From positions 20,044 through 52,043 of the forward strand of contig JAITBP010000001.1 in assembly GCA_031283585.1 (NCBI GenBank): a stretch of 32,000 nucleotides of DNA, in the 5' to 3' direction. Numbering within the stretch: position 1 is the stretch's first letter; each line of letters begins with the position of its first letter. Both the position numbers and the translations under genes were made by a program. Origin of the DNA: Puniceicoccales bacterium. Lineage in GTDB: Bacteria; Verrucomicrobiota; Verrucomicrobiia; Opitutales; LL51. This document shows, piece by piece, positions 7,776 through 31,520 of this stretch. The notes under the pieces were generated by a model, which worked only from the letters and a program-made list of their open reading frames with translations, did no database searches and was not told where the DNA came from.

Positions 7776-8978
7776 TCACCTCAGTCTGATTGATCTGCCG
7801 ATAAAATAAAATCCCAGCATGCCTATCAAAATCATCCCCATGGATATCTTACCAACGGTGGCTGGACTGCTCTGGGTTAGCAAAAAGTATCCAATACCTG
7901 GCGATATGAAATTTCTAAGGCCGACCACCGCTGTGTCAGCACTCATATATTCACTTAACTTATTATCTGGGGCTATCTTAGTAACCCAAAGACTCCAGGC
8001 AATTAGGCCGCCGCCGTAGCCTAGGCCGAGGAAAACACTGGCCAGAGCAATGGAAAATGTGTCTCTGGTTGTTAGAAACAATGGAACGCCTATTAGATAG
8101 CATAGATTTACCAATTGCTTCATGGTAACGAATTTGAATCTATCAAAAATTATTCCCCAACACTGGGAACTTATAATTCGCAAAGCAGATGGTATGATTA
8201 CTATAAAGCATGCCACGGTTTGATTGGAAAGATTCATCCCGTATTTTTTATTGACTAGATACTCCACGCGCAATGGTATGGTCATCTGATTGGCGATACC
8301 TATCAATGTCCAGCACAACAGGATGCATCCAAATAACCTGTCCTTCCAAATCAGGTGAAAATTTTCCAATAATTTTCTGCTATTTACATTTGGCAAAGGT
8401 TTTGATGGTATGCCGAGAAATGACAGACCGCATAGCAATGATGCCACAGCAGCAATGGCGAGTACCACTCTGAAGTTTGCTAAGTCTTTATCTAATAATG
8501 CACTACTTATTTCTGAAAAGACCAGGCCAGAAATCGCCATGAAAGTCATCGAAAGACCAAGCCTGGCTCCTCTTTCCTCTTTTGTGTAATTTTGACTATA
8601 GATGTCTATGGTTATGGATACCGGTTGCTTATAGATAAATCTGGAGATTGCCGAGAAGATGAAATACATTTGCCAGCAGTTAGAGATGGCCGATAATGAT
8701 ATTGCTATCGATATAATTAGGAAAAAGATACAGCACATGGTGGTGATTTTTAATCCGGATCGGCAGGTAAGTTTTTGTGTTATTGGTGCCACAAGCATGC
8801 CCGAGAACCCAATGGTTTCGAGCAATGCCTTCATTTCGGTGGGCATATGAAATTGTCTTATTGCTATGAGAAGCATAAGTGTCCTAAACTCTACATCTAC
8901 AATGCCCTGCAGTGCGCATCGGATGGAGTCATGCCTGAACATACGCCTGGACAGCGTTAGTTGATCTGCTTGTTGCAT
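7776..8978 (-). CDS. Polytopic membrane transporter, MFS-like
   Basis: 400 aa with about 12 hydrophobic segments. A DRF(K) loop motif (IIFDRFKF) sits in the second half. The substrate is not identifiable. The start at 8978 overlaps the upstream TPR gene by 22 nt. An alternative ATG is at 8942. Confidence 0.6.
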   Translation of the reverse strand: MQQADQLTLSRRMFRHDSIRCALQGIVDVEFRTLMLLIAIRQFHMPTEMKALLETIGFSGMLVAPITQKLTCRSGLKITTMCCIFFLIISIAISLSAISNCWQMYFIFSAISRFIYKQPVSITIDIYSQNYTKEERGARLGLSMTFMAISGLVFSEISSALLDKDLANFRVVLAIAAVASLLCGLSFLGIPSKPLPNVNSRKLLENFHLIWKDRLFGCILLCWTLIGIANQMTIPLRVEYLVNKKYGMNLSNQTVACFIVIIPSALRIISSQCWGIIFDRFKFVTMKQLVNLCYLIGVPLFLTTRDTFSIALASVFLGLGYGGGLIAWSLWVTKIAPDNKLSEYMSADTAVVGLRNFISPGIGYFLLTQSSPATVGKISMGMILIGMLGFYFIGRSIRLR

Positions 8979-9364
8979 GACTTCGTTTTATTCATTCTCT
9001 TACTAGAAACCATGTCTTTGAATTTTTGACAACTTCTCAGCGAATCTAGATCGGTGTCGTCATTGAGCCATTGCCAATCATTGTAGCCAAGTTCAATGGC
9101 CCGGGTGATCTCCAGAATGGCTCCGGTTTTTTTACCTATCAGCGCTAAGCTACAGGCGAGATTATAATGTGCTATAGGACTTGTTGGATCAAGCTTGACA
9201 TATCTTCTATCCATTTTCACACTCTTTTTCAGATCGCCGCTTTCAGAGTATAACCTGGATAATAGGCGAACAATCTCGATGTCATTTTTCCTTTTTGCGT
9301 AAAGATCTTCGTAAAATTTTTTGTAAAAATCCATGTCGCTAGAGTACATACCGACCTCCATCAT
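8957..9364 (-). CDS. Small cytoplasmic TPR-repeat protein, possibly a T3SS class II chaperone-like protein
   Basis: 135 aa with no signal peptide. TPR-like helices include AHYNLACSLALIGKKTGAILEITRAIELGY. A typical TPR-protein end motif (DDTDLDSLRSCQKFKDMV) is present. It lies immediately downstream of sctC on the same strand. Confidence 0.65.
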   Translation of the reverse strand: MMEVGMYSSDMDFYKKFYEDLYAKRKNDIEIVRLLSRLYSESGDLKKSVKMDRRYVKLDPTSPIAHYNLACSLALIGKKTGAILEITRAIELGYNDWQWLNDDTDLDSLRSCQKFKDMVSSKRMNKTKSCNKQIN

Positions 9365-9432: not shown

Positions 9433-11691
9433 TTACCAGCGACGACGACGACGATGTATGTCCGTAGCCGTGGGTTCCTTCGAATTGGATCCTTCTTCTT
9501 TGGAGGTTGATGTGGATTTTTTGGACAAGTTTTTCAGTTTTTTTTCTGCAATTTTTTCCCTACGTTCTTTTCTACGTTTCTTTAGCTGTTCTTTTTTTTC
9601 TTTTTCCTTACGCTTTTTTTCCTCTTTTTTAGCAGCTCTGTTTTTGATCCTACGTTCTTCTTTGGTGGTCTTGTAGTCTTTTTCTTTGTAGTCATGAAGC
9701 AGGTTAAATTCTTTGGAATCCATGGTTGCTTCGCCGGATAGGTGGCTGTCGTTAAAAAATCTATTATACCTTTTATCCGCCTGGCTTTCTAGCTTTATTA
9801 CCTTTGGGGTGATTAAATATATTCGTTCCAGGATGTTATTGGAATTCATTTTATTTTTGAATATATTTCCCAAAATTGGTATGTCCTTGAGGATTGGTAT
9901 GCCGGTATCACCCTTATCGTGTTGCTCATGGAAGTAGCCACCAATGAAAAGACTTTGGCCTTCGTAGAGCACGGCTTCGGTATTGATAGAACTGGTACTT
10001 GTGGTTGGCGTTCCTGAGGCTCCGAACCTTGGATCTTTGTCCACAGAACCATCGGATACTTCCACGAGTAATTTTATTTTTGGATTCCCTTCTTCGTCGA
10101 ACTCTTCTGGTATTATATGGGGAACGACCACGAGTTTCGTAGAAGCTGTCACATCATATAGGCCCTGGGATTCTTTGCCAGAAACCTGTACATATACGGT
10201 GTTTGAGCGATCTATTACAGCGGCTATGTTATCTACGGTTAACACGGATGGTCTGGCTAGGGTTTGGGCATCACCGGCTTCTTCCAGTGCCTGGATCGTT
10301 GCTGTTAGGGTATAGTTTTTGAAGATACCATTGATACTTGCTTTCGATTTTTCATTATCTGCTGGATTGAACAGGGCTTCCAATCTAGGGCCCTTTAGTT
10401 CTAGGAGATTTGTACCAAATTGCTCTGTAATACCTTTGCGTATGTCTACTATGGCCACATCGATCCTTATGGCCTGCTGGGGCACATCGAGTTGCTCGAT
10501 AAGGTTTCCTAGCAGCTCCATGTCCTGTTTTTTAGCTTTTACGATGACTGAATTTAACCTGGAATCATAGGTTATGAATATATCTTTCCAGGATTTTTCG
10601 ACTTTTGTACCATCATCGCCCTCTTTTGTACCATTACTATTGGTAGCTTTGGTGGCTTTGGAATTTTCATTTTCATCGCTGTTTTTCTTGGATTTATCGT
10701 AGTCGGGCTTAAAGTAATTGCAATTGTCCGTCAGGTCTTTCACCGCCGTGGCCTTATGGACATTCTTACTGTTGATAGCTACACCTATGTTGGTATCACC
10801 GATGGCCCCTGGTTTATTATACAGTAGGGCTTGCAACATGGTTGCGACGCCTGGGATTGTTACAGATCCGCCTTTATAATTAAACGACATGTCGTAGGCC
10901 CAGGCATTTTTTAATCTAAACGATTTTATGTCATAGATATCTGTCATGCGTTCCACAATTATTTTTGATGATAGATCTGAAATAACTTCCATCAGTTTTG
11001 GTGGGCCGCTGACCACCAGTATGCCTGATTTTTCCATGGGTCTAAAGGAAAAATTTGAACTGGAAAACCCTAGCTGGCTCATGACTTTTGCCAAAGAACG
11101 CATTTCGTCCGAGCTCATTTTCCATACATTTGATAGGATTTCGTTGCCTTTGTACACATATAAAATACTGCCATCAAAGAGCCAGGTGAGACCGTAGGCC
11201 TGGGTTATGTCGTGCCAAAATTGTTTCGGCACCACATTGCTAAATTTACCATTTACTATGTCGGTTATCTTCTCACTTACTACCACCTCTACGCCCTGCA
11301 TGGCACAGAAATTTTTTATTAATTCTGTGAGCTGCTGATCCTTGGAGAAATGATAATAGTTAGAATCTTTCCAAGGAATTCCGTCATCGGAGGATTTAAC
11401 CGGACTGACTATCATGCCATAGTCATTTTCTATGGTACCTTGTATTGTGCTGCAGATCAATTCCTTGTCGTCATTAACCTTCTTGGCCTCCTGGCTAGAT
11501 GTTTTTGGGAGGACATTTTCGGTTTTGTTATCGACGGTTTCTTTGGCTTTGTTTACCTGATCGGCTTCAGCTTTATGTACCACGGCTGGTGTCGGTGTAC
11601 CGGATGGGTTTTCACTGGTTTTCTGCAAAGCAGAGGCACATGCATCTGTGAAGAGACATATTAGACATAAGCATGTTGGTATGTAGTTCAT
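9433..11691 (-). CDS. sctC: Type III secretion system outer-membrane secretin SctC (YscC/InvG/CdsC family) with an unusual charged C-terminal extension
   Basis: T3SS-type N0 domain: VVVSEKITDIVNGKF...YGLTWLFDGSILYVYKGNE. Secretin domain: ATIQALEEAGDAQTLARPSVLTVDNIAAVIDRSNTVYVQV ... GIPILKDIPILGNIFK...RIYLITPKVI. I chose the ATG at 11691 (MNYIPTCLCLICLFTDACASA, signal-like). The ORF-track start at 11820 would overlap the upstream gene. Confidence 0.9.
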   Translation of the reverse strand: MNYIPTCLCLICLFTDACASALQKTSENPSGTPTPAVVHKAEADQVNKAKETVDNKTENVLPKTSSQEAKKVNDDKELICSTIQGTIENDYGMIVSPVKSSDDGIPWKDSNYYHFSKDQQLTELIKNFCAMQGVEVVVSEKITDIVNGKFSNVVPKQFWHDITQAYGLTWLFDGSILYVYKGNEILSNVWKMSSDEMRSLAKVMSQLGFSSSNFSFRPMEKSGILVVSGPPKLMEVISDLSSKIIVERMTDIYDIKSFRLKNAWAYDMSFNYKGGSVTIPGVATMLQALLYNKPGAIGDTNIGVAINSKNVHKATAVKDLTDNCNYFKPDYDKSKKNSDENENSKATKATNSNGTKEGDDGTKVEKSWKDIFITYDSRLNSVIVKAKKQDMELLGNLIEQLDVPQQAIRIDVAIVDIRKGITEQFGTNLLELKGPRLEALFNPADNEKSKASINGIFKNYTLTATIQALEEAGDAQTLARPSVLTVDNIAAVIDRSNTVYVQVSGKESQGLYDVTASTKLVVVPHIIPEEFDEEGNPKIKLLVEVSDGSVDKDPRFGASGTPTTSTSSINTEAVLYEGQSLFIGGYFHEQHDKGDTGIPILKDIPILGNIFKNKMNSNNILERIYLITPKVIKLESQADKRYNRFFNDSHLSGEATMDSKEFNLLHDYKEKDYKTTKEERRIKNRAAKKEEKKRKEKEKKEQLKKRRKERREKIAEKKLKNLSKKSTSTSKEEGSNSKEPTATDIHRRRRRW

Positions 11692-11710
11692 ATCATTTAC
11701 ATTGTGCAAC

Positions 11711-12148
11711 TTAGTATGGCTGTAGGGATTGAATTGGTATTTGTTGGGTTGTCGTTGCGTCGGCCCAAAAAGATAGATTAGACACAAAGGATTCGGCTTG
11801 ATGAATGATTTCACAATCATCGATATGCTTTAGTCCAAGCCGCCGTATAATCAGTAGCTTTTGCTGGGCCATATCGATAGAAACCACATCGTTGTTGTCT
11901 TTTAATCGACCAAAATTCCATTGAAGGATTTTTTTTAAAACCGATTCAGATTGTTTGTTGTCCCCAATTGGTTCTCCGACGGTACCGTTAAGTCCAATGG
12001 TGTTATTATCGATTTTGTATACCTTGAGATCGATGGCTTTATCTAAAACAACTTCGTATACACCGCCAATCTCGGTGGCCCAATCTTCGACTCTAAAAAA
12101 TTCCGATAGGATAACAACCGCCTCACTCCACTCCATACGCCAACTCAA
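11711..12148 (-). CDS. Type III secretion class I chaperone-like protein (CesT/SycE fold family)
   Basis: About 141-145 aa, acidic, no signal peptide. The pattern matches T3S chaperones: LKKILQWNFGRL...SIDMAQQKLLIIRRL...ESFVSNLSFW. It lies directly upstream of sctC. The ORF-track start is TTG 12148. An ATG is at 12136. Confidence 0.55.
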   Translation of the reverse strand: MSWRMEWSEAVVILSEFFRVEDWATEIGGVYEVVLDKAIDLKVYKIDNNTIGLNGTVGEPIGDNKQSESVLKKILQWNFGRLKDNNDVVSIDMAQQKLLIIRRLGLKHIDDCEIIHQAESFVSNLSFWADATTTQQIPIQSLQPY

Positions 12149-12363: not shown

Positions 12364-12855
12364 GTGAAATTAAAAATATTTTTACTTTTTAATATGGGAT
12401 TGTGGTTAAATTTAGGTTCTTTGGATGCAGGTATAGAACAATCAGTTGATTCGACAGGAAATCATAGAAACCACAGTAAAAACAGGGTCAATTATAATTA
12501 CTATAATCAGGATCTTCGTCAGCGTATACGCAATAGGATAGCAGGGTTATCGATTAATGAAATTGTAAATATAATTATTGAATATTTATCCATCGGCAGT
12601 GGTGCTGCTTTGAGTTGTGTATTTTTTGATGTGCCCATGGATAGTATTCAAAGTATAATCGGCAGGTTGACCAATCGGCAGATTGTAGATATCCTAGATT
12701 TGGTTATTAACCAAGGGGTAGCAGGTAGTGTTAAAAATATGATCAGGTATTTAGGTATAGAAAATAGGCTTTATGAGATAAGAAACCTGGCTATGGAATT
12801 ACACAGAGACCGGGTTTGGTCATATATAGATTCCGTTAATGAGGATTATATTTAG
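12364..12855 (+). CDS. Hypothetical small exported protein; no recognisable family
   Basis: 163 aa. The GTG start is preceded by AAGGAG at good spacing. The N-terminus KLKIFLLFNMGLWLNLGSLDAG is signal-peptide-like. An AT-rich hairpin with a T-tract follows the stop. Confidence 0.65.
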   Translation: MKLKIFLLFNMGLWLNLGSLDAGIEQSVDSTGNHRNHSKNRVNYNYYNQDLRQRIRNRIAGLSINEIVNIIIEYLSIGSGAALSCVFFDVPMDSIQSIIGRLTNRQIVDILDLVINQGVAGSVKNMIRYLGIENRLYEIRNLAMELHRDRVWSYIDSVNEDYI

Positions 12856-16910: not shown

Positions 16911-16939
16911 TTGACAAGAAATAAAATCCACGTTGAGAT
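16911..16939 (+). promoter_or_regulatory. Candidate promoter (TTGACA-N17-TGAGAT) for the 16966 gene
   Basis: Perfect -35 at 16911-16916 and a weak -10 at 16934-16939, preceded by an A/T UP-like tract. If real, it excludes the TTG 16933 start and supports ATG 16966, which follows AAAGGAAAAGGG. Confidence 0.35.
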
Positions 16940-16965
16940 GCCAGAAATTTAAAAAAGGAAAAGGG

Positions 16966-18411
16966 ATGAAAAAACTATATAATTATGTGTGTATTATCTG
17001 CTGGGCTGTGGCCATGTTCTGTCCAGAATCGGCGTTAGCTTTCAAATGCGATGGTGTAAGATTCAATGAGCATAACTATGCTATTGGCAAAGGTGATTGG
17101 ATAGGTCCTATGGATCAAGATCAATATGTGAATAAGCATGGATTGAAGTGGATTCTTGAAATTGAAGAAACTGACTATTATGATGATATGCAAGATAGAA
17201 TAGACAAATTGGGTGCAAGTGTTAAATATTATTTACTTTTTGAGAAAAAAAGTAATGAAATAAATCTAGAAAAAACCGAAATTGATAAGTTGTCTAACCT
17301 TATAAAAATGAGCACTGATACTAGCTGCTGGGTCAATATTAGTAATAATGCTAATAAGCCTGAAGAGCCTGAAGGACGGTTAAATGGAAGACATTATATG
17401 AAAAAGAAAACATGGTTCGATAAGGGTGTAAAACGTATCGATGAATGTGAAGATTTTTATGAAATAGACAATGAAAAGTCTACCACTTTAAATGTAGTCT
17501 TTCAAATACAGTATGGTGTGCCTTACTATAGGTATTCGCATACAATGTCCATCCCATCACACCATAAGTATCAGATGACGGAAAAATCGGTAACAAATGC
17601 TATAGGCTTTGCTCTGAGAGATGATCAAAGTAAAGTGATTGAAATTTATGAAATTGATGGAATAAAAAAATACTTGGCCGATTTTTTGGTAGATAATAAA
17701 GCTGCCTGGGATGCGATTTTACGTGACTACAACACACAGACGGGAAAGGTAATTTTTTATAACATGTCATCCCTGATAATTGAGACTATTCTCAATATTT
17801 GTAATAATGAGGTACCAAATTTAAAGGAAATAACTGAAAATAGCCTGAATGAGATCATTAAAGACTTATACGAAATTGATTATTTATTTTCAGAATGGAA
17901 ATATTTTATGCCTATAAAAGTTTGTGAATATTTTGATGCTGTACTCAAAATTATATATGGCGTTTTTGATGTAGGTGTGTTAAAAAATATCTTTAGTATG
18001 AATGGGCCAGATTTCGATAATGCCATGATTGAGGAGTGTAAATGCTGTATTACTAGAGAGCTTTGTATTATTATTAAAGTTTTAAATGAGATTGGTAAAA
18101 TTTTGGATACTGAAACTGCTATAGGTCCTTACGAAGTTCCTAGCCGTTCAACTTCTAGTTCTACAACTTCTACAACTTTTAGCTATTCAACCCCTAGTTC
18201 TACAACTTTTAGCTATAATAGTTATGGAATGGATTACTTATATTCAAAATCTGAAAATGTAGGATATCAAAGAAATAACGGAAAAAGTAGAAGAGGCAGA
18301 AGAAATAGGCGTAATTCCAGGCGTCGCCGTATCACTAGAAAAAATAGAAAAAGAAACAGAAGAAACAGAAGAAACAGAAAAATTAGGAAAAACAGAAGAA
18401 CCAGAAGGTAA
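16966..18411 (+). CDS. Hypothetical exported Cys-rich protein with a Ser/Thr-rich linker and a 45-residue poly-arginine C-terminal tail
   Basis: Signal peptide MKKLYNYVCIICWAVAMFCPESALA/FK. The roughly 400-aa body has many Cys and no family I recognise. A STTFSY-type repeat follows. In the last 45 residues I count 23 Arg and 5 Lys, with no acidic residue. A hairpin terminator follows the stop. Confidence 0.8.
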   Translation: MKKLYNYVCIICWAVAMFCPESALAFKCDGVRFNEHNYAIGKGDWIGPMDQDQYVNKHGLKWILEIEETDYYDDMQDRIDKLGASVKYYLLFEKKSNEINLEKTEIDKLSNLIKMSTDTSCWVNISNNANKPEEPEGRLNGRHYMKKKTWFDKGVKRIDECEDFYEIDNEKSTTLNVVFQIQYGVPYYRYSHTMSIPSHHKYQMTEKSVTNAIGFALRDDQSKVIEIYEIDGIKKYLADFLVDNKAAWDAILRDYNTQTGKVIFYNMSSLIIETILNICNNEVPNLKEITENSLNEIIKDLYEIDYLFSEWKYFMPIKVCEYFDAVLKIIYGVFDVGVLKNIFSMNGPDFDNAMIEECKCCITRELCIIIKVLNEIGKILDTETAIGPYEVPSRSTSSSTTSTTFSYSTPSSTTFSYNSYGMDYLYSKSENVGYQRNNGKSRRGRRNRRNSRRRRITRKNRKRNRRNRRNRKIRKNRRTRR

Positions 18412-20189: not shown

Positions 20190-22256
20190 TTATGCACCTG
20201 TGCCTATTTCACTAACCTTTTCCTGTTTTTTGCCTTTGTAGTGTATTATACTATCGGCCAATGACATGGACATGGTGGTATTTTGTGCTGAGCCCATTCC
20301 AAGAGCCGTATTACCTGCCACGCCTCTCTGGTCTTCTTTTATTGTTCTTGTATCTCTGAAAAAGCCTGAAACTCCTCGTTTGATTCCTCTCCAGATGCTT
20401 TCGTCTATCTTTTCTGTAAAACCCTGCATCTTTTCATTGGCAAGCATTCTGGCCAGGTAATCAATTGATGAACCATTCCAATCACCTGTATATACCTCAT
20501 CGTTTTTTATTATTTCGAAAACCGTTTTGCGGAATTCTTCTATCTGGCCTGGAGCGACTTTTGATGAAGATAGCATCGATTCAAAATACGTTAAAGCCTG
20601 GAGTTTTTCTTTAACACTGGCAGGTAAGGTTCCTGTAATTGGTTGGCCAATGGTAAATCCTGTTTCCAGGGTTAGTCCATTGTAGGCATTGTTGACGTTT
20701 CCTTTTTGTAGCGCTTTTACTCGTCTAGCCTTTGAAACCGTCGAATTATAGGCGGCGTTTCTTAGGGTTGTCTCGAGCCTTTCTGGATTTTTAAGCACAG
20801 CTTCACGTTCGGATGGACTCAATGATTTGAATGATGCCACGATATATCTGGTGGCTCTATCATCACCCTTTTTCCCAATTTCACCGAGAACCCTTTCGAA
20901 TATGTCCTTATTTACTTTGCTTATAGCATCTTTTATGGCAGCGATATCTCCACCGGAAACATCACTATATATATCTATTATTATCGAATCACCCTCTGCT
21001 TTATTGGCCGATTGAGATGAGGCAAGTGGGTCAATGAAAGGTTGTTTCGGCGTTTCCACCTTTGACTCCGATGGAACTCCCTGTTGCTTTGGCGTATTGA
21101 CTTCCGGTATCTTTGTCTCATCTACTGTTGTCTTTGGTGTATGATGATGTTCATGTATATGTATTGAATTATCAACATTAATCCTTGAATTATCAGCATA
21201 TTTGGTTGTATTACCATTGGGATCTGCAGCTTTATCAGTACCTGATGTAGTGCTAGTCGCTGTGTTTTGACCGACTTTCTGAGAACCGTCGTCGCTGCCG
21301 CTGATCTTAGTATTTGGCGTGATGTCTTGACCAACTTTCTGGGAATCGCTACCTGCAATGGGTTTGCTACCAGAACCTATCGAAACATTAGGTTTAGTGA
21401 AAGGTTGACCCTTATTAAAATAGTCTACTTTATCTTTAAAAGGCATGTTAGATTGTCTATCAGTAAACTTATTGGGCTTGGCTTGATTTTGGTCGACTTT
21501 CTGGGAATCGCCACCTGCAATGGGTTTGCTACCAGAACCTGACGAGGTGTTTATTGGTTTGTTATCGCCCAGGTTGATACCTTTTCCATAGTTTGGCAAC
21601 AGTGGTACTATCGAAACACCTCTGATTTGGTTTCCTTTAAGGTTATCGGTGGTGCGTACATGACTAGGTGACATAGCTTGAATATCCTCCAATGGTGTCT
21701 CTATAATTTGAGGTGGTTCTGGTAAGCTTGGTGTTTTGCTTGATTGGGTTTTAAGAGATCTTAAAGCTTCTTGTACTTCCTGTCGTGGTAAAGCGTTATA
21801 GGTATTGGTGGCAACTTCTTTTGGAGTGCCAGACGTTCCCTGGGCTGCTTTGTATTGTTCGTTCTTTTTATTGATTATGTTTCTGCAAAATGACTCCATG
21901 GTAGCTGGCGAAGCTAGCACTTGCGTTCTTTCATCAGGTGTTAACAAAGTAAATGCCATTGCAGTAAATTTATCAGCGTCATTTTTAACTTTATCATATG
22001 CTTTTAAAGGTAACAATGTGGCAGTGTCTATTTTGTAATCTTTGAAGATGGCTGTTACAACCGTTTGGGCCGTTTCTGCTTTTTTTTGATCCAGTTCAGT
22101 TAGTTTTAATGTGGAATAACCGCTAGCATTCATTACAGTTGGACCACTTCCGTTGAGTTGCTTTAATTTAAAATTGCCAAATTCACCCTGTAGGTTTTTG
22201 ATCTTCTCGGATGCAGCTGATTGGGTAACTTGAGTTACTGACGAAATCGATGACAT
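20190..22256 (-). CDS. Large hypothetical repeat-containing protein without a signal peptide; T3SS effector candidate
   Basis: 688 aa. The N-terminus is polar and S/T/Q-rich (MSSISSVTQVTQSAASEK) with no hydrophobic segment. The centre is low-complexity with repeated SGSKPIAG(G/S)DSQKV units and a HIHEHHH cluster. Two paralogous about 60-aa modules are present. No family recognised. Confidence 0.8.
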   Translation of the reverse strand: MSSISSVTQVTQSAASEKIKNLQGEFGNFKLKQLNGSGPTVMNASGYSTLKLTELDQKKAETAQTVVTAIFKDYKIDTATLLPLKAYDKVKNDADKFTAMAFTLLTPDERTQVLASPATMESFCRNIINKKNEQYKAAQGTSGTPKEVATNTYNALPRQEVQEALRSLKTQSSKTPSLPEPPQIIETPLEDIQAMSPSHVRTTDNLKGNQIRGVSIVPLLPNYGKGINLGDNKPINTSSGSGSKPIAGGDSQKVDQNQAKPNKFTDRQSNMPFKDKVDYFNKGQPFTKPNVSIGSGSKPIAGSDSQKVGQDITPNTKISGSDDGSQKVGQNTATSTTSGTDKAADPNGNTTKYADNSRINVDNSIHIHEHHHTPKTTVDETKIPEVNTPKQQGVPSESKVETPKQPFIDPLASSQSANKAEGDSIIIDIYSDVSGGDIAAIKDAISKVNKDIFERVLGEIGKKGDDRATRYIVASFKSLSPSEREAVLKNPERLETTLRNAAYNSTVSKARRVKALQKGNVNNAYNGLTLETGFTIGQPITGTLPASVKEKLQALTYFESMLSSSKVAPGQIEEFRKTVFEIIKNDEVYTGDWNGSSIDYLARMLANEKMQGFTEKIDESIWRGIKRGVSGFFRDTRTIKEDQRGVAGNTALGMGSAQNTTMSMSLADSIIHYKGKKQEKVSEIGTGA
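21274..21540 (-). repeat. Intragenic direct repeats: two 45-bp copies differing at 1 position (21334-21378 and 21496-21540, period 162 bp), plus a degenerate third copy starting near 21274
   Basis: Read directly from the sequence: ACTTTCTGGGAATCGC[T/C]ACCTGCAATGGGTTTGCTACCAGAACCT. In frame (54 codons apart), encoding GSGSKPIAG(G/S)DSQKV. Confidence 0.9.
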
Positions 22257-28484: not shown

Positions 28485-31400
28485 ATGGAAGGTAAGGAAA
28501 TTGATAAAGATGTTTTAACAAAGCGATTTAGCCAGGTTTGCCTATTGACTGTCGTGGGTATGGGCTTTGGTGTCGTGGATTTGCAGGGTGATGTTACAAC
28601 TAAGGACAGTGGCGTTAGATCAACCTTAACAGATATTAACAGTTCCACTGATACTGGTTATCTTGAGACCACCGCGGTTGATAAATTCGCAGTTATTGAG
28701 ATTTCAGGCAATACGGGTAATAATGAAGTTAGTGAGCATGATTTTACGTTGAAAGGTGGTGGTACCGTTGGTCTTAGCTTTAACGCAACATCAGCTACGG
28801 ATGAATTTATAATGAAGCGTAACAGCAAATGCATAAAGATCGAAGGTACGCCAAAATTAGTGTTTTTTGATGCTACCTATTCCACCAATGATGTAAAAAT
28901 CAAAGCTGATGAAACGTTAAATTCCTTTTCCGGTCAATTATTGCTGAAAACCGGCGATAAGAAATTGATTTTCAGCGATGGTAAAATTAATCCTACTGGT
29001 GCTGCGTTGCGTGTTGTAACCACCAAGACTGGTGCTGTTCAAGTTGGTGCAAGTGGTTCGATATTGGATTCTGGTTTTACCGTAAAAAATCTGATACTTG
29101 GTGCGAATCCAGGCGAAGATTTGAAAATTGTGAAATACACCGATGCTTCCGGTGGTACGGCAGGTAATAACATGGATTTCGTCGATATCGGCACCGATGG
29201 CAGTGGCGGTAACCTGATTGCATTTGTAGATACTGAAAAAGGTGTTTTGATCACCGAAGGAGGTATCGTCTATGGTGAAAGCTCGTTGAAGTTAGCAAAT
29301 AATACAGCAAATGGTGAATTGAATATTGCCAACAGCTTGGAGGTTAAGGCAGGTGCGACATTGACACTTATGGGTGTAAAAGATGATGGTACGACTGCTA
29401 ATGACCTAACGATCAGGGCAGCAAAGGATTTAGCTGGAGCAGAGGTTGATGAAGCAACCAAAGGACGCATCATCATCAATGGTGGTGCTATGGTAAAGCT
29501 TGGCAGTAATATTAATTTTACAGTAAAGGATAAAAAAATTAACGCCAGTTTTGTGCTTACTGGCACCGGTGATAGCGATGCCTTAATAGCTAAATTGGTT
29601 GCCGATGGTTCTGGTGGGACCCTATCGATGATGGGAGAGATGGTTAATCCGGCGATATTGGTTTCTGATAATTGCTTTGGTTCCATCGGTGGTGAGAAAA
29701 AATTGATCATATCTGGTGATAGTACAAAAAATGTCTTGGTCCAGGTTGGTGCTAAAAGTACGTTGAAGATTGCTGGCGAAGTTGTGCTGAATTCCTCCTC
29801 GGCTACTCCGGGTGAAAAATCCTTTGTGGTTGGAGAAAAAGCCAACCTTGTATTTACCGATGCGGCTAAGCATCGGCTGGAAATTGGTGCAAATGATAAG
29901 ATAATTTTTAGTAATGAATCTGAGATTCGATTCGCGACGCCGGAAGATAGCAATGTACGTGGCCAATTATTTTTAGCCAAGGTCGATAATTTTGTTGGCC
30001 AAAACAGTACCAAGGTAGCGCTTTCTTGCGGCCTATTGGTCAAGGACATGGTTAGGAAAGCTCCAGGTATTAGTGTGAACAAATTGACATTGGTTGAGCT
30101 TGGAGATAATAAGGCCAGTGTATTTGCCGAAAGAGTTGACGTTAGCGGTGCCGATAATTTTATCTCAGACTATGTTTTTGGCCCTACAGACGGTAGTGGA
30201 TCTAAATATGGTATTGTTAGCACAACCATACATACCTACGGCGAAGCTTTTGAAGCCAATGAAATCGATGATACTGGTGTCTCCGGAGACTTTATCGATA
30301 AAGTAGAAGAGATGCAGGGTAATAGCAGTGTAAGCAATGATGAGGTCAAGCTGTTCGGTATGTTGATTGCCGATTATGATAAGGACGAAGATGGTTTTGA
30401 TAATGGTGATATCGCCAGATCCATATCTCGCAGTACGGTGGAGGAACGTAACCGGGTGACCATTGCTTTGGCCAATATGGCTCGCCAGGCAATCTATGGC
30501 CATATGGCTAGAGAAACCCATAACCGGGAGCTTTGGCTGGCCGGTATGGTGGATATGGTCCGCCAGAATGAGGTCAATGGCTATGGTATGCATGCCGGAT
30601 TATGGGGTGCTGTAATAGGCTATGATGCCGGCGTTAATGATGAGTTGGTGCTTGGATTGATGGCTGGCTGTGTCCATGCCACCGTGAGGTATAACGGGAT
30701 GACGTTGCTAGGTGGTAACAATGGTAGGCAGCTGACCGGTTTTGGTGGTTTCTACGGTGAATGGGAATCCTTGGTCCGGGATCTTTGGATCAAGTTTTCC
30801 GGATTGTTTGGTCAAGTAAAATATAAGGAGTGGGGAAATAGGCCTATTCCCGATGAAGAAGGTGACCATGAGGCAGAGATCGGTAGATTTTTCAGTTCAC
30901 ACAAGGGCCACTGGCTATCCTTTAATATGGATAGTGTTTGGCTAACCGGTGAGTACAAGGACCTGAAGTTTGGGCCCTGGCTGGCTTTATCCTATGATTA
31001 TGTCCACCAGAGGTCCGGTAGCGAGGTTGTGACGATGGAAGACGAACCCGCTCCCGACCAAACCAAGACTGCGGCGGCTGTTCAACCAGCTCCGGCGGCT
31101 CAACCGGCGACGGCGACCCAACCGGCGGCCCAGCCGGATCAACAGACACCGGCGGCTACCCCAGCGGCCAAGGCCGATGAAGATAATGACGAGGATGGCA
31201 TAGTCTATGGCAAGTCCGGCCGTCATATGTTGTCCGGCGTGTTTGGCGTTCACATGGAGGGCGAGTTACCTTTGGGGAAAATCTTTGTCGAGGTTGGTTA
31301 TAAACGCGAATTTTGTCGAAGAAACCGGATCGGCGATAGTCAATTTTTGGGTCTGGAGTACGCTCCGGCCATCGGTCATGCCACGAAAAACCTCTGTATT

Positions 31401-31520
31401 ATTCGAACCGGCTATGGGTTGACAAAGAACCACTGGGGCCTGGATTTTGGTCTGGAGGGCCAGCTTGGCCGTAATTTTAAAGATTGTTCTGCCAACATCG
31501 TGGCCACCTATTCGTTCTGA
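28485..31520 (+). CDS. Autotransporter (type Va) outer membrane protein, Pmp-like beta-helical passenger plus C-terminal beta-barrel
   Basis: 1011 aa. Hydrophobic N-terminal segment FSQVCLLTVVGMGFGVV. The long G/T/V/N/S-rich passenger has scattered GGx and FxxN-like motifs. The C-terminal translocator signature is RELWLAGMVDMVRQNEVNGYGMHAGLWGAVIGYDAGVNDELVLGLMAG. It ends in ATYSF, a terminal aromatic residue. Confidence 0.85.
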   Translation: MEGKEIDKDVLTKRFSQVCLLTVVGMGFGVVDLQGDVTTKDSGVRSTLTDINSSTDTGYLETTAVDKFAVIEISGNTGNNEVSEHDFTLKGGGTVGLSFNATSATDEFIMKRNSKCIKIEGTPKLVFFDATYSTNDVKIKADETLNSFSGQLLLKTGDKKLIFSDGKINPTGAALRVVTTKTGAVQVGASGSILDSGFTVKNLILGANPGEDLKIVKYTDASGGTAGNNMDFVDIGTDGSGGNLIAFVDTEKGVLITEGGIVYGESSLKLANNTANGELNIANSLEVKAGATLTLMGVKDDGTTANDLTIRAAKDLAGAEVDEATKGRIIINGGAMVKLGSNINFTVKDKKINASFVLTGTGDSDALIAKLVADGSGGTLSMMGEMVNPAILVSDNCFGSIGGEKKLIISGDSTKNVLVQVGAKSTLKIAGEVVLNSSSATPGEKSFVVGEKANLVFTDAAKHRLEIGANDKIIFSNESEIRFATPEDSNVRGQLFLAKVDNFVGQNSTKVALSCGLLVKDMVRKAPGISVNKLTLVELGDNKASVFAERVDVSGADNFISDYVFGPTDGSGSKYGIVSTTIHTYGEAFEANEIDDTGVSGDFIDKVEEMQGNSSVSNDEVKLFGMLIADYDKDEDGFDNGDIARSISRSTVEERNRVTIALANMARQAIYGHMARETHNRELWLAGMVDMVRQNEVNGYGMHAGLWGAVIGYDAGVNDELVLGLMAGCVHATVRYNGMTLLGGNNGRQLTGFGGFYGEWESLVRDLWIKFSGLFGQVKYKEWGNRPIPDEEGDHEAEIGRFFSSHKGHWLSFNMDSVWLTGEYKDLKFGPWLALSYDYVHQRSGSEVVTMEDEPAPDQTKTAAAVQPAPAAQPATATQPAAQPDQQTPAATPAAKADEDNDEDGIVYGKSGRHMLSGVFGVHMEGELPLGKIFVEVGYKREFCRRNRIGDSQFLGLEYAPAIGHATKNLCIIRTGYGLTKNHWGLDFGLEGQLGRNFKDCSANIVATYSF

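What the first reader, a model, noticed from the sequence alone, without database searches (positions are those of the whole stretch)
9433..9696. T3SS secretin with an ~87-residue E/K/R-rich C-terminal extension ending in RRRRRW
The conserved secretin core ends around ...RIYLITPKVI. The ORF then continues in frame for about 130 residues. The last 87 are HDYKEKDYKTTKEERRIKNRAAKKEEKKRKEKEKKEQLKKRRKERREKIAEKKLKNLSKKSTSTSKEEGSNSKEPTATDIHRRRRRW. The alternating E/K/R stretch has the composition of an ER/K single alpha-helix spacer. In characterised SctC proteins the C-terminus is a short S-domain that binds a pilotin lipoprotein, and I know of no described secretin with a tail like this. It may replace pilotin-dependent targeting, tether the secretin to another envelope component, or recruit a partner. 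The terminal Arg cluster resembles the poly-Arg tail of the exported protein at 16966-18411. That raises the possibility of a shared envelope-targeting or anchoring module.
Basis: partly seen in the sequence, partly recalled or inferred. Interest (0 to 1): 0.65.

Follow-up and report, generated by a model that had tools for sequence, protein, structure and literature searches.

The report
Polybasic tail on a verrucomicrobial secretin
A type III secretion outer-membrane pore protein from an uncultured Puniceicoccales (Verrucomicrobiota) bacterium really does carry an extra 83-residue, strongly positively charged tail; the part conserved in its relatives is the arginine-rich end, whose function is untested.

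Summary
ORF 9433..11820 (-) is a T3SS secretin (SctC). It runs in frame 83 residues past the S-domain equivalent and ends HRRRRRW. Two independent assemblies have in-frame tails of the same type, so a frameshift artefact is very unlikely.

The interpretation needs correcting.
- The organism is Puniceicoccales (Verrucomicrobiota), not Chlamydiota.
- The S-domain is retained; the tail is added after it.
- AlphaFold predicts the K/E/R stretch as one 53-67-residue helix. It is strongly polycationic (net +17 over 50 residues), and its charge pattern is no better than shuffles. It is not a canonical balanced ER/K single alpha-helix.
- The K/E/R stretch contains an internal duplication and occurs only in the three closest sequences. 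An analogous tail in another lineage differs by 84 residues between near-identical strains.
- The conserved element is the polybasic C-terminus. It is present in 41 of 49 clade secretins, 4 of 123 distant SctC representatives and 5 of 125 neighbouring ORFs.
- The proposed shared module with the 492-aa protein is not supported. That protein is an ORFan and uses different Arg codons.

My best guess, which is inferred, is an electrostatic anchor or partner-docking terminus on a spacer of non-critical length. I rate it a new variant of a known kind, of moderate interest.

The parts
9433..11691 (-). sctC gene (T3SS secretin), from the likely start M44 to the TAA stop; the mechanical ORF extends upstream to 11820
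   Evidence: Pfam hits: T3S_SPI-1_N0, Secretin_N 6e-15, Secretin 4.8e-32. phmmer to PDB: MxiD 3.6e-51, InvG 3.3e-40.
11629..11691 (-). Predicted Sec signal peptide MNYIPTCLCLICLFTDACASA (A-x-A cleavage site, no canonical lipobox)
   Evidence: Read directly from the sequence. Homologues have comparable N-terminal signal peptides.
9793..10290 (-). Secretin (C-domain) beta-barrel core, Pfam PF00263, residues 511-676 of the 795-aa ORF
   Evidence: AF2 predicts strands here with pLDDT 75-92.
9676..9792 (-). S-domain equivalent (KLESQADKRYNRFFNDSHLSGEATMDSKEFNLLHDYKEKDYKT), conserved across the clade
   Evidence: The alignment to the MxiD C-terminal region extends to query residue 648 of 731. The clade alignment shows a conserved NRFF..L.GE.T...EF.L motif.
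9517..9675 (-). K/E/R-rich low-complexity segment predicted as a single long helix (mature residues 652-704, about 8 nm); net charge +17 over 50 residues
   Evidence: AF2 with a 61-sequence MSA: helix 652-704, pLDDT 87-93. AF2 single sequence: helix 638-704, pLDDT up to 98. Charge statistics.
9553..9645 (.). Imperfect 47-bp x2 tandem duplication inside the K/E/R-coding DNA
   Evidence: TRF score 114, 78% matches.
9457..9516 (-). S/T/E-rich flexible linker (STSTSKEEGSNSKEPTATDI)
   Evidence: AF2 pLDDT below 50 in the full-length model.
9436..9456 (-). Terminal polybasic cluster HRRRRRW, with Arg codons CGT x4 + CGC; the stop codon follows at 9433-9435
   Evidence: The clade-wide conserved basic terminus is shown.
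11711..12148 (-). CesT-like small gene immediately upstream; a small gene occupies this position across the clade
   Evidence: Pfam CesT 5.6e-7. A small ORF lies upstream of sctC in L004, L005, L008, L009 and L010. The L008 copy gives a weak CesT hit (0.002); the L005 and L009 copies give no Pfam hit.
8957..9364 (-). Small cytoplasmic TPR protein 68 nt downstream, with no terminator-like site between (probably co-transcribed); found only in the window lineage and L004

Best explanation
The region encodes a genuine C-terminal extension of a Puniceicoccales T3SS secretin, added after a retained S-domain equivalent.

It has three parts:
- A K/E/R-rich, strongly polycationic low-complexity segment, predicted to form one continuous helix of about 8-10 nm.
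- A short S/T-rich flexible linker.
- A terminal HRRRRRW. This is the local form of a polybasic C-terminus (roughly RRxR-hydrophobic-RxxxRRR) that nearly all secretins of this clade carry.

Proposed mechanism (inferred, not shown). The selected element is the polybasic terminus. It emerges next to the S-domain, at the periplasmic face of the outer membrane, on each of the ~15 subunits. There it would act as an electrostatic anchor to an anionic envelope component: inner-leaflet phospholipid, peptidoglycan, or an acidic partner. This would help target or stabilise the secretin ring, a job done in model systems by a lipoprotein pilotin that binds the extreme C-terminus. The K/E/R helix would be an evolvable tether of non-critical length. 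It arose by internal duplication and adds further positive charge.
For: Shown:
- Secretin identity and a retained S-domain equivalent.
- An in-frame tail in three independent assemblies.
- Helix prediction both with and without an MSA.
- Net charge +17 over 50 residues and +20 over 87.
- A terminal basic cluster (5 or more K/R in the last 12 residues) in 41 of 49 clade secretins against 4 of 123 distant SctC representatives (Fisher p=7e-27), and in 9 of 9 secretins against 5 of 125 neighbouring ORFs in nine loci (p=7e-11).
- The exact sequence of the terminus varies while its charge is kept, and acidic residues are nearly excluded (40 of 49 have at most 1 acidic residue).
- The K/E/R segment is confined to WIN, P0002 and P0003. 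It contains a 47-bp tandem duplication and becomes unalignable after about 25 residues.
- No lipobox-bearing small ORF was found in the window, L004 or L001.

Established knowledge:
- Pilotins bind the extreme C-terminal peptide of the S-domain in T2SS and T3SS secretins (PMC6532946, read).
- No pilotin is encoded in the C. trachomatis T3SS operons (PMC4682100).
Against: - No experiment or structure bears on the binding target.
- The enrichment statistics ignore phylogenetic non-independence.
- A polybasic peptide could equally dock on an acidic protein, such as an unidentified pilotin encoded elsewhere. Only about 20-30 kb around each gene was inspected.
- Eight of 49 clade members lack a terminal cluster. 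In P0043, P0045 and P0046 it has become internal, and P0012 and P0020 end differently.
- AlphaFold tends to predict helices for any K/E/R-rich sequence, and +17 net charge would destabilise an isolated helix.
- Exporting such a cationic tail through Sec is energetically unfavourable, which makes its retention puzzling rather than self-explanatory.
Confidence: 0.35

Rival explanations
1. The polybasic terminus is the docking peptide for a dedicated protein partner, and the K/E/R helix is only a linker. The partner would be a pilotin-like lipoprotein or another acidic periplasmic or outer-membrane protein. This would parallel MxiD-MxiM, InvG-InvH and PulD-PulS.
For: In all characterised systems the extreme C-terminus of the secretin is the pilotin-binding site (PMC6532946). 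The clade motif has a weak positional pattern, RRxR-hydrophobic-RxxxRR[RH], often with a Cys. That is more than bare composition.
Against: No candidate lipoprotein lies next to sctC in any of the loci examined. Conservation is mainly of charge, not of specific residues. Known pilotin-binding peptides are amphipathic and hydrophobic (Ala-Phe signature), not poly-Arg.
Confidence: 0.22
2. The K/E/R-rich stretch is a selectively near-neutral low-complexity expansion with no specific function. It would have arisen by slippage or duplication in A-rich DNA and be tolerated because it sits in a disordered tail. Only the terminus, if anything, would matter.
For: A 47-bp tandem duplication and six A-runs of 6 nt or more lie within the tail DNA. 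Tail length is 123, 166 and 202 residues in three close relatives. P0020 and P0217 fall in the same 90% cluster yet differ by an 84-residue internal duplication. The charge pattern is indistinguishable from shuffles. Tails of 5 to more than 1000 residues occur among SctC representatives.
Against: The frame stays open through 83-165 codons in three lineages and always returns to a basic terminus, whereas the alternative frames contain stops. Charged helical tails arose at least twice in the clade and also occur in distant SctC (P0214, P0198, P0084), which hints at a recurrent advantage.
Confidence: 0.3
3. The segment is a true ER/K single alpha-helix that acts as a rigid molecular ruler. It would place the terminus at a fixed distance, for example outer membrane to peptidoglycan, like Lpp or TolA domain II.
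For: AF2 predicts a long uninterrupted helix with pLDDT up to 98. The segment is 74% charged, and its hydrophobic residues are too sparse for a heptad seam (read directly from the sequence). About 8 nm is comparable to the outer membrane-peptidoglycan spacing set by Lpp (established knowledge).
Against: Net charge is +17, with 22 favourable against 29 repulsive pairs and no excess over shuffles; the E4K4 control gives 77 against 12. Most clade members lack the helix altogether. An 84-residue length polymorphism between near-identical strains in the analogous P0020 lineage argues against a fixed ruler.
Confidence: 0.1
4. The poly-Arg end is a sorting or anchoring module shared with other exported proteins of this organism, such as the 492-aa protein at 16933-18411.
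For: Both proteins have an N-terminal signal peptide, an S/T-rich linker and an Arg-rich C-terminus. A non-homologous protein at the syntenic position in L004 also has a long K/R/N-rich tail.
Against: The 492-aa ORF has no homologues. Its 48-residue R/N/K tail uses AGA codons, whereas the secretin uses CGT. Among 125 non-secretin ORFs in nine loci only this one has 5 or more Arg in its last 12 residues. There is no PEP motif or transmembrane helix as in PEP-CTERM-type sorting signals (read directly from the sequence).
Confidence: 0.06
5. The tail is an assembly or sequencing frameshift artefact that removes the true stop codon.
For: A-runs up to A8 within the tail are error-prone.
Against: Independent assemblies encode in-frame homologous tail starts (DY..TKEER...) and basic termini. 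There is no stop near the S-domain end in any clade member.
Confidence: 0.02

Closest known systems
T3SS secretins SctC (Shigella MxiD, Salmonella InvG) with a pilotin-binding S-domain
   Same: The N0, Secretin_N and Secretin domain order is the same. There is strong sequence homology (MxiD 3.6e-51). The alignment continues through the region equivalent to the S-domain, to MxiD residue 558 of 566.
   Different: MxiD and InvG end within about 10-20 residues of that point. This protein continues for 83 more residues carrying net charge +20 and a poly-Arg end. No pilotin gene was seen nearby.
Chlamydial CdsC (PVC-type T3SS secretin)
   Same: Both are atypically large secretins with a hydrophilic N-terminal extension and insertions in the N-domains. 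No pilotin is encoded in the C. trachomatis T3SS operons (PMC4682100). The disordered regions 1-80 and 272-344 here are comparable. sctC lies apart from the other T3SS genes.
   Different: The phylum differs: the best hits are all Puniceicoccales or Opitutales MAGs. Some more distant relatives have Cys-rich rather than polybasic tails (P0053, P0054, P0056, P0092; their taxonomy is unverified).
ER/K single alpha-helix (SAH) domains (e.g. myosin VI/X, caldesmon)
   Same: High E+K+R content (74%), a predicted long uninterrupted helix, and no hydrophobic seam.
   Different: The charges are not balanced (+17 over 50 residues). The i/i+4 salt-bridge network is not enriched over shuffles, and like-charge pairs outnumber opposite-charge pairs.
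Periplasm-spanning charged helices (TolA domain II, Braun lipoprotein Lpp)
   Same: A long K/E/A-rich helix in an envelope protein that could bridge outer-membrane-proximal and deeper periplasmic layers. Lpp ends in a basic residue that contacts peptidoglycan (established knowledge).
   Different: No homology was detected (only secretin-family Pfam hits). There is no evidence of trimerisation or covalent attachment. Helix length is highly variable, or the helix is absent, in relatives.
C-terminal sorting signals ending in an Arg cluster (PEP-CTERM/exosortase, common in Verrucomicrobia)
   Same: An extreme C-terminal run of Arg residues.
   Different: There is no PEP motif and no hydrophobic transmembrane segment before the Arg cluster (read directly from the sequences).

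Membership tests
T3SS secretin SctC | N0 + Secretin_N + C-terminal Secretin (beta-barrel) domains with an N-terminal signal peptide | tested here: met
   Pfam PF21304 (26.8 bits, just under its cutoff of 27), PF03958 (6e-15), PF00263 (4.8e-32). Signal peptide read from the sequence. The AF2 fold is consistent.
T3SS secretin SctC | Closest solved homologues are injectisome secretins rather than T2SS or T4P secretins | tested here: met
   MxiD 3.6e-51 and InvG 3.3e-40, against PilQ and GspD at 1e-16 or weaker.
T3SS secretin SctC | Genomic association with other T3SS components | tested here: inconclusive
   Only a CesT-like chaperone gene (upstream) and a TPR protein gene (downstream) are adjacent. 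The other T3SS core genes are not in the window or in the flanks of relatives.
Pilotin-dependent secretin (S-domain class) | A C-terminal S-domain whose last helix binds a cognate lipoprotein pilotin | tested here: inconclusive
   An S-domain-equivalent sequence is present. No lipobox-bearing small ORF was found in the window, L004 or L001. Whole genomes were not available.
ER/K single alpha-helix | Predicted continuous helix without a hydrophobic seam | tested here: met
   AF2 helix 652-704 (with MSA) and 638-704 (single sequence), pLDDT 87-98. Hydrophobic residues are sparse (read from the sequence).
ER/K single alpha-helix | Approximately balanced E versus K/R, with a dense i to i+4 / i+3 opposite-charge network | tested here: not met
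   10 E against 27 K+R. 22 favourable against 29 repulsive pairs, shuffle p=0.37. The (E4K4)6 control gives 77 against 12.
PEP-CTERM / exosortase sorting signal | PEP motif, then a hydrophobic transmembrane helix, then a terminal Arg cluster | tested here: not met
   The tail reads ...SKEPTATDIHRRRRRW. There is no transmembrane segment, and no PEP motif is conserved in relatives.
Liposecretin (self-piloting, e.g. HxcQ) | N-terminal lipobox with Cys at +1 | tested here: not met
   The signal peptide ends ...FTDACASA|LQ with no canonical L-[AS]-[GA]-C. Most homologues have type I signal peptides; P0020 has an LVGC lipobox-like motif.

The most novel reading that the evidence does not exclude
Secretins of a whole Puniceicoccales clade of host-associated-type T3SS carry a built-in polybasic C-terminal anchor. 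This anchor would replace the lipoprotein pilotin by binding anionic lipid or peptidoglycan directly. In some lineages it would sit on an expandable charged helical tether, giving a third, electrostatic route to secretin outer-membrane targeting or stabilisation besides pilotins and N-terminal lipidation.
Probability: 0.25. Interest if true: 0.6.

Novelty: new variant of a known kind. Interest (0 to 1): 0.4.

Why it matters
How secretins reach and stay in the outer membrane is known only for a few proteobacterial models: pilotins, GspAB-type accessory complexes and liposecretins. PVC-type T3SS appear to lack pilotins. A clade-wide conserved polybasic terminus gives a concrete, testable candidate for a pilotin-independent determinant. 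It also shows that the secretin C-terminus is an evolutionary hot spot, carrying polybasic, Cys-rich or charged-helix tails in different uncultured lineages.

Tried and rejected
1. Frameshift artefact: rejected from independent in-frame relatives and the stops in the other frames.
2. Chlamydiota origin: rejected. All close hits are Puniceicoccales or Opitutales MAGs.
3. Canonical ER/K SAH: the charge-balance and salt-bridge criteria are not met.
4. Coiled coil: hydrophobic residues are too sparse for heptads (read from the sequence).
5. PEP-CTERM-like signal: no PEP motif or transmembrane segment.
6. Module shared with the 492-aa ORF. The homologue search returned only the protein itself. BLASTP against the L004 protein at the syntenic position found nothing. 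Arg codon usage differs.
7. Pilotin next door: a lipobox scan of the window, L004 and L001 found nothing. The downstream TPR protein has no signal peptide and is absent downstream of sctC in the four non-syntenic clade loci whose called genes were listed (L005, L008, L009, L010).
8. Naming the outgroups with Cys-rich or charged tails: the cluster look-up returned no organism names.
9. Literature searches for Puniceicoccales T3SS or secretin C-terminal extensions found no description of such tails.
10. Pfam on the neighbouring ORFans (492 aa, 688 aa, 163 aa) gave nothing.
Full report
**Observation**

It terminates HRRRRRW, followed by TAA. Pfam finds T3S_SPI-1_N0 (residues 159-223), Secretin_N (299-449) and Secretin (511-676), so 119 residues follow the secretin core.

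The ORF start is probably M44. That residue opens a typical signal peptide (MNYIPTCLCLICLFTDACASA) 17 nt after the stop of the upstream gene. The mature protein is then about 731 aa, which is the numbering used below.

Across the tail only this frame is open. The two nearest relatives come from independent assemblies:
- P0002: 73% identity, JGI metagenome 3300042596, locus L004, syntenic with the window.
- P0003: 80% identity, NCBI JAIRXD010000034.1, 'Puniceicoccales bacterium Gsp477_bin142', locus L001.

Both carry in-frame K/E/R-rich tails. The tails start homologously (DY..TKEER...) and end in basic clusters. A frameshift artefact is therefore very unlikely.

**Whose gene it is**

All close homologues are from Puniceicoccales or Opitutales MAGs (Verrucomicrobiota), not Chlamydiota. 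Non-flagellar T3SS are known in Verrucomicrobia (PMC3459982).

In every locus examined sctC sits among housekeeping genes, away from other T3SS core genes. A small gene lies immediately upstream in every locus; it matches Pfam CesT in the window, weakly in L008, and not in L005 or L009. The downstream TPR gene is present only in the window and in L004. No terminator-like site separates it from sctC.

**Where homology stops**

phmmer against PDB sequences gives MxiD 3.6e-51 and InvG 3.3e-40. The MxiD alignment runs to query residue 648, which corresponds to MxiD 558 of 566. The protein therefore keeps an S-domain equivalent, and this region is also the best-conserved post-barrel segment in the clade (NRFF..L.GE.T...EF.L). 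The truly extra part is residues 649-731, which is 83 aa. It also means the tail is appended to the S-domain rather than replacing it.

**Anatomy of the tail**

AlphaFold2 with a 61-sequence alignment predicts one helix at residues 652-704 (pLDDT 87-93), followed by a low-confidence stretch at 706-731. The tail folded alone, without an alignment, gives a helix at 638-704 with pLDDT up to 98. That is 53-67 residues, or about 8-10 nm.

The segment is not a canonical ER/K single alpha-helix:
- The 50-residue core has 10 E against 27 K+R, a net charge of +17.
- Opposite-charge i/i+3 and i/i+4 pairs (22) are outnumbered by like-charge pairs (29).
- The arrangement is no better than composition-preserving shuffles (p=0.37).
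- An (E4K4)6 control scores 77 against 12.

The coding DNA contains an imperfect 47-bp tandem duplication (9553-9645) and six A-runs of 6 nt or more. After the helix come an S/T-rich linker and the terminal HRRRRRW. The Arg residues are encoded CGT x4 + CGC.

**What is conserved**

I aligned the post-barrel regions of the clade. The alignment shows four zones:
- a conserved S-like segment of about 47 residues;
- a moderately conserved E.PSF..ATF / W-containing stretch;
- a variable, often acidic patch;
- a polybasic extreme C-terminus of the form RRxR-hydrophobic-RxxxRR[RH].

Counts of sequences with 5 or more K/R in the last 12 residues:

| Set | With basic terminus | Total |
|---|---|---|
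| Clade secretins | 41 | 49 |
| Next-closest hits (P0051-64) | 3 | 14 |
| Closest 50%-identity SctC representatives (P0073-92) | 7 | 20 |
| Remaining, distant SctC representatives (P0093-215) | 4 | 123 |
| Secretins in nine loci from these bacteria | 9 | 9 |
| Other ORFs in the same nine loci | 5 | 125 |

Fisher tests give p=7e-27 for clade against distant representatives and p=7e-11 for secretins against neighbouring ORFs. These tests ignore shared ancestry. However, the sequence of the terminus varies while its charge is kept, which argues for selection on charge.

The long K/E/R helix occurs only in the window, P0002 and P0003. An analogous, more charge-balanced tail occurs in P0020. Its 90%-identity cluster mate P0217 differs from it by an 84-residue internal duplication. 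The helix is therefore a young, quickly changing insertion between two conserved elements.

**Wider context**

Among 143 representatives of SctC diversity, post-barrel tails range from 5 to more than 1000 residues. A few others are charged and look helical (P0214, P0198, P0084). Some are Cys-rich (P0053, P0054, P0056, P0092, P0058, P0097; taxonomy not recoverable). Extended secretin tails are thus common in uncultured lineages, but my literature searches found no description or characterisation of them.

**The proposed link to the 492-aa ORF**

That protein (16933-18411) has a signal-peptide-like N-terminus, an S/T-rich linker and a 48-residue R/N/K tail. It has no homologues. Its Arg codons are mostly AGA, whereas the secretin uses CGT. 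It is the only one of 125 non-secretin ORFs with 5 or more Arg in its last 12 residues. A non-homologous protein at the syntenic position in L004 also has a long basic tail. This is curious, but it is not evidence for a module shared with the secretin.

**Mechanism**

Shown:
- the anatomy of the tail;
- clade-specific conservation of the basic terminus;
- the predicted helix;
- rapid length evolution.

Inferred: in solved secretins the S-domain lies on the outside of the barrel at the periplasmic face of the outer membrane, and its extreme C-terminus is where pilotins bind (PMC6532946). A ring of ~15 polybasic termini at that position would most plausibly bind an anionic surface, either inner-leaflet phospholipid or peptidoglycan, or else an acidic partner. 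Either would aid targeting or stabilisation. The K/E/R helix would act as a tether of non-critical length that adds more charge.

No lipoprotein candidate lies nearby, and no pilotin is encoded in the T3SS operons of C. trachomatis, another PVC-superphylum bacterium (PMC4682100). I give the electrostatic-anchor reading about 0.35. I give a protein-docking peptide about 0.22 and a rigid SAH ruler about 0.1. I give about 0.3 to the view that the K/E/R part specifically is a near-neutral low-complexity expansion; that view is compatible with either role for the terminus.

**Verdict**

The feature is real. It is a new variant of a known kind: a T3SS secretin with a lineage-specific polycationic tail and a clade-conserved polybasic terminus. 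Interest is moderate (0.4).

Noticed in passing
window 16933-18411 (+): A 492-aa ORFan with a signal-peptide-like N-terminus, an S/T-rich linker and a 48-residue Arg/Asn/Lys tail carrying about 30 basic residues. It has no homologue in the 5.8-billion-protein database other than itself. It could be a host-targeted or surface protein.
   Followed up: partly
L004 1312-2949 (-): A 545-aa protein at the syntenic position next to PPDK, also with a K/R/N-rich C-terminal tail of about 70 residues. BLASTP detects no similarity to the window's 492-aa ORF.
   Followed up: partly
P0020 vs P0217 (locus L005 10001-12619): Two secretins in the same 90%-identity cluster differ by an 84-residue internal duplication within their charged C-terminal tail (872 vs 956 aa). 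This is a strain-level length polymorphism.
   Followed up: partly
window 9517-9630: Six A-runs of 6 nt or more (two of them A8) lie inside the tail-coding DNA. A slip of one base would truncate the tail and remove the Arg cluster, so phase variation is conceivable. Reads were not available to test this.
   Followed up: no
window 12364-12855 (+); L004 7275-7883, 8171-8782, 8766-9305 (-): Small ORFs with signal-peptide-like N-termini and no Pfam match lie between the aldolase gene and the CesT-like gene. There is one copy in the window and three in L004. They may form a lineage-specific secreted family.
   Followed up: no
window 20190-22256 (-): A 688-aa S/T/G/P-rich ORF with internal repeats (SGSKPIAG.DSQKV occurs twice) and no Pfam match. 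It is a possible T3SS substrate.
   Followed up: no
window 11711-12148 (-) and the equivalent position in L004, L005, L008, L009, L010: A small gene (136-176 aa) sits directly upstream of sctC throughout the clade, although sctC is otherwise isolated from T3SS genes. It matches Pfam CesT in the window and weakly in L008, but not in L005 or L009.
   Followed up: partly
P0053, P0054, P0056, P0092, P0058, P0097 (distant SctC homologues): These secretins have Cys-rich post-barrel tails instead of basic ones, so the C-terminal tail appears to be an evolutionary hot spot. The source organisms could not be identified.
   Followed up: partly
window 28485-31520 (+): A 1011-aa autotransporter with a Pro/Ala/Gln-rich linker inside the C-terminal region. 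The Pfam Autotransporter beta-domain hit is only partial.
   Followed up: no
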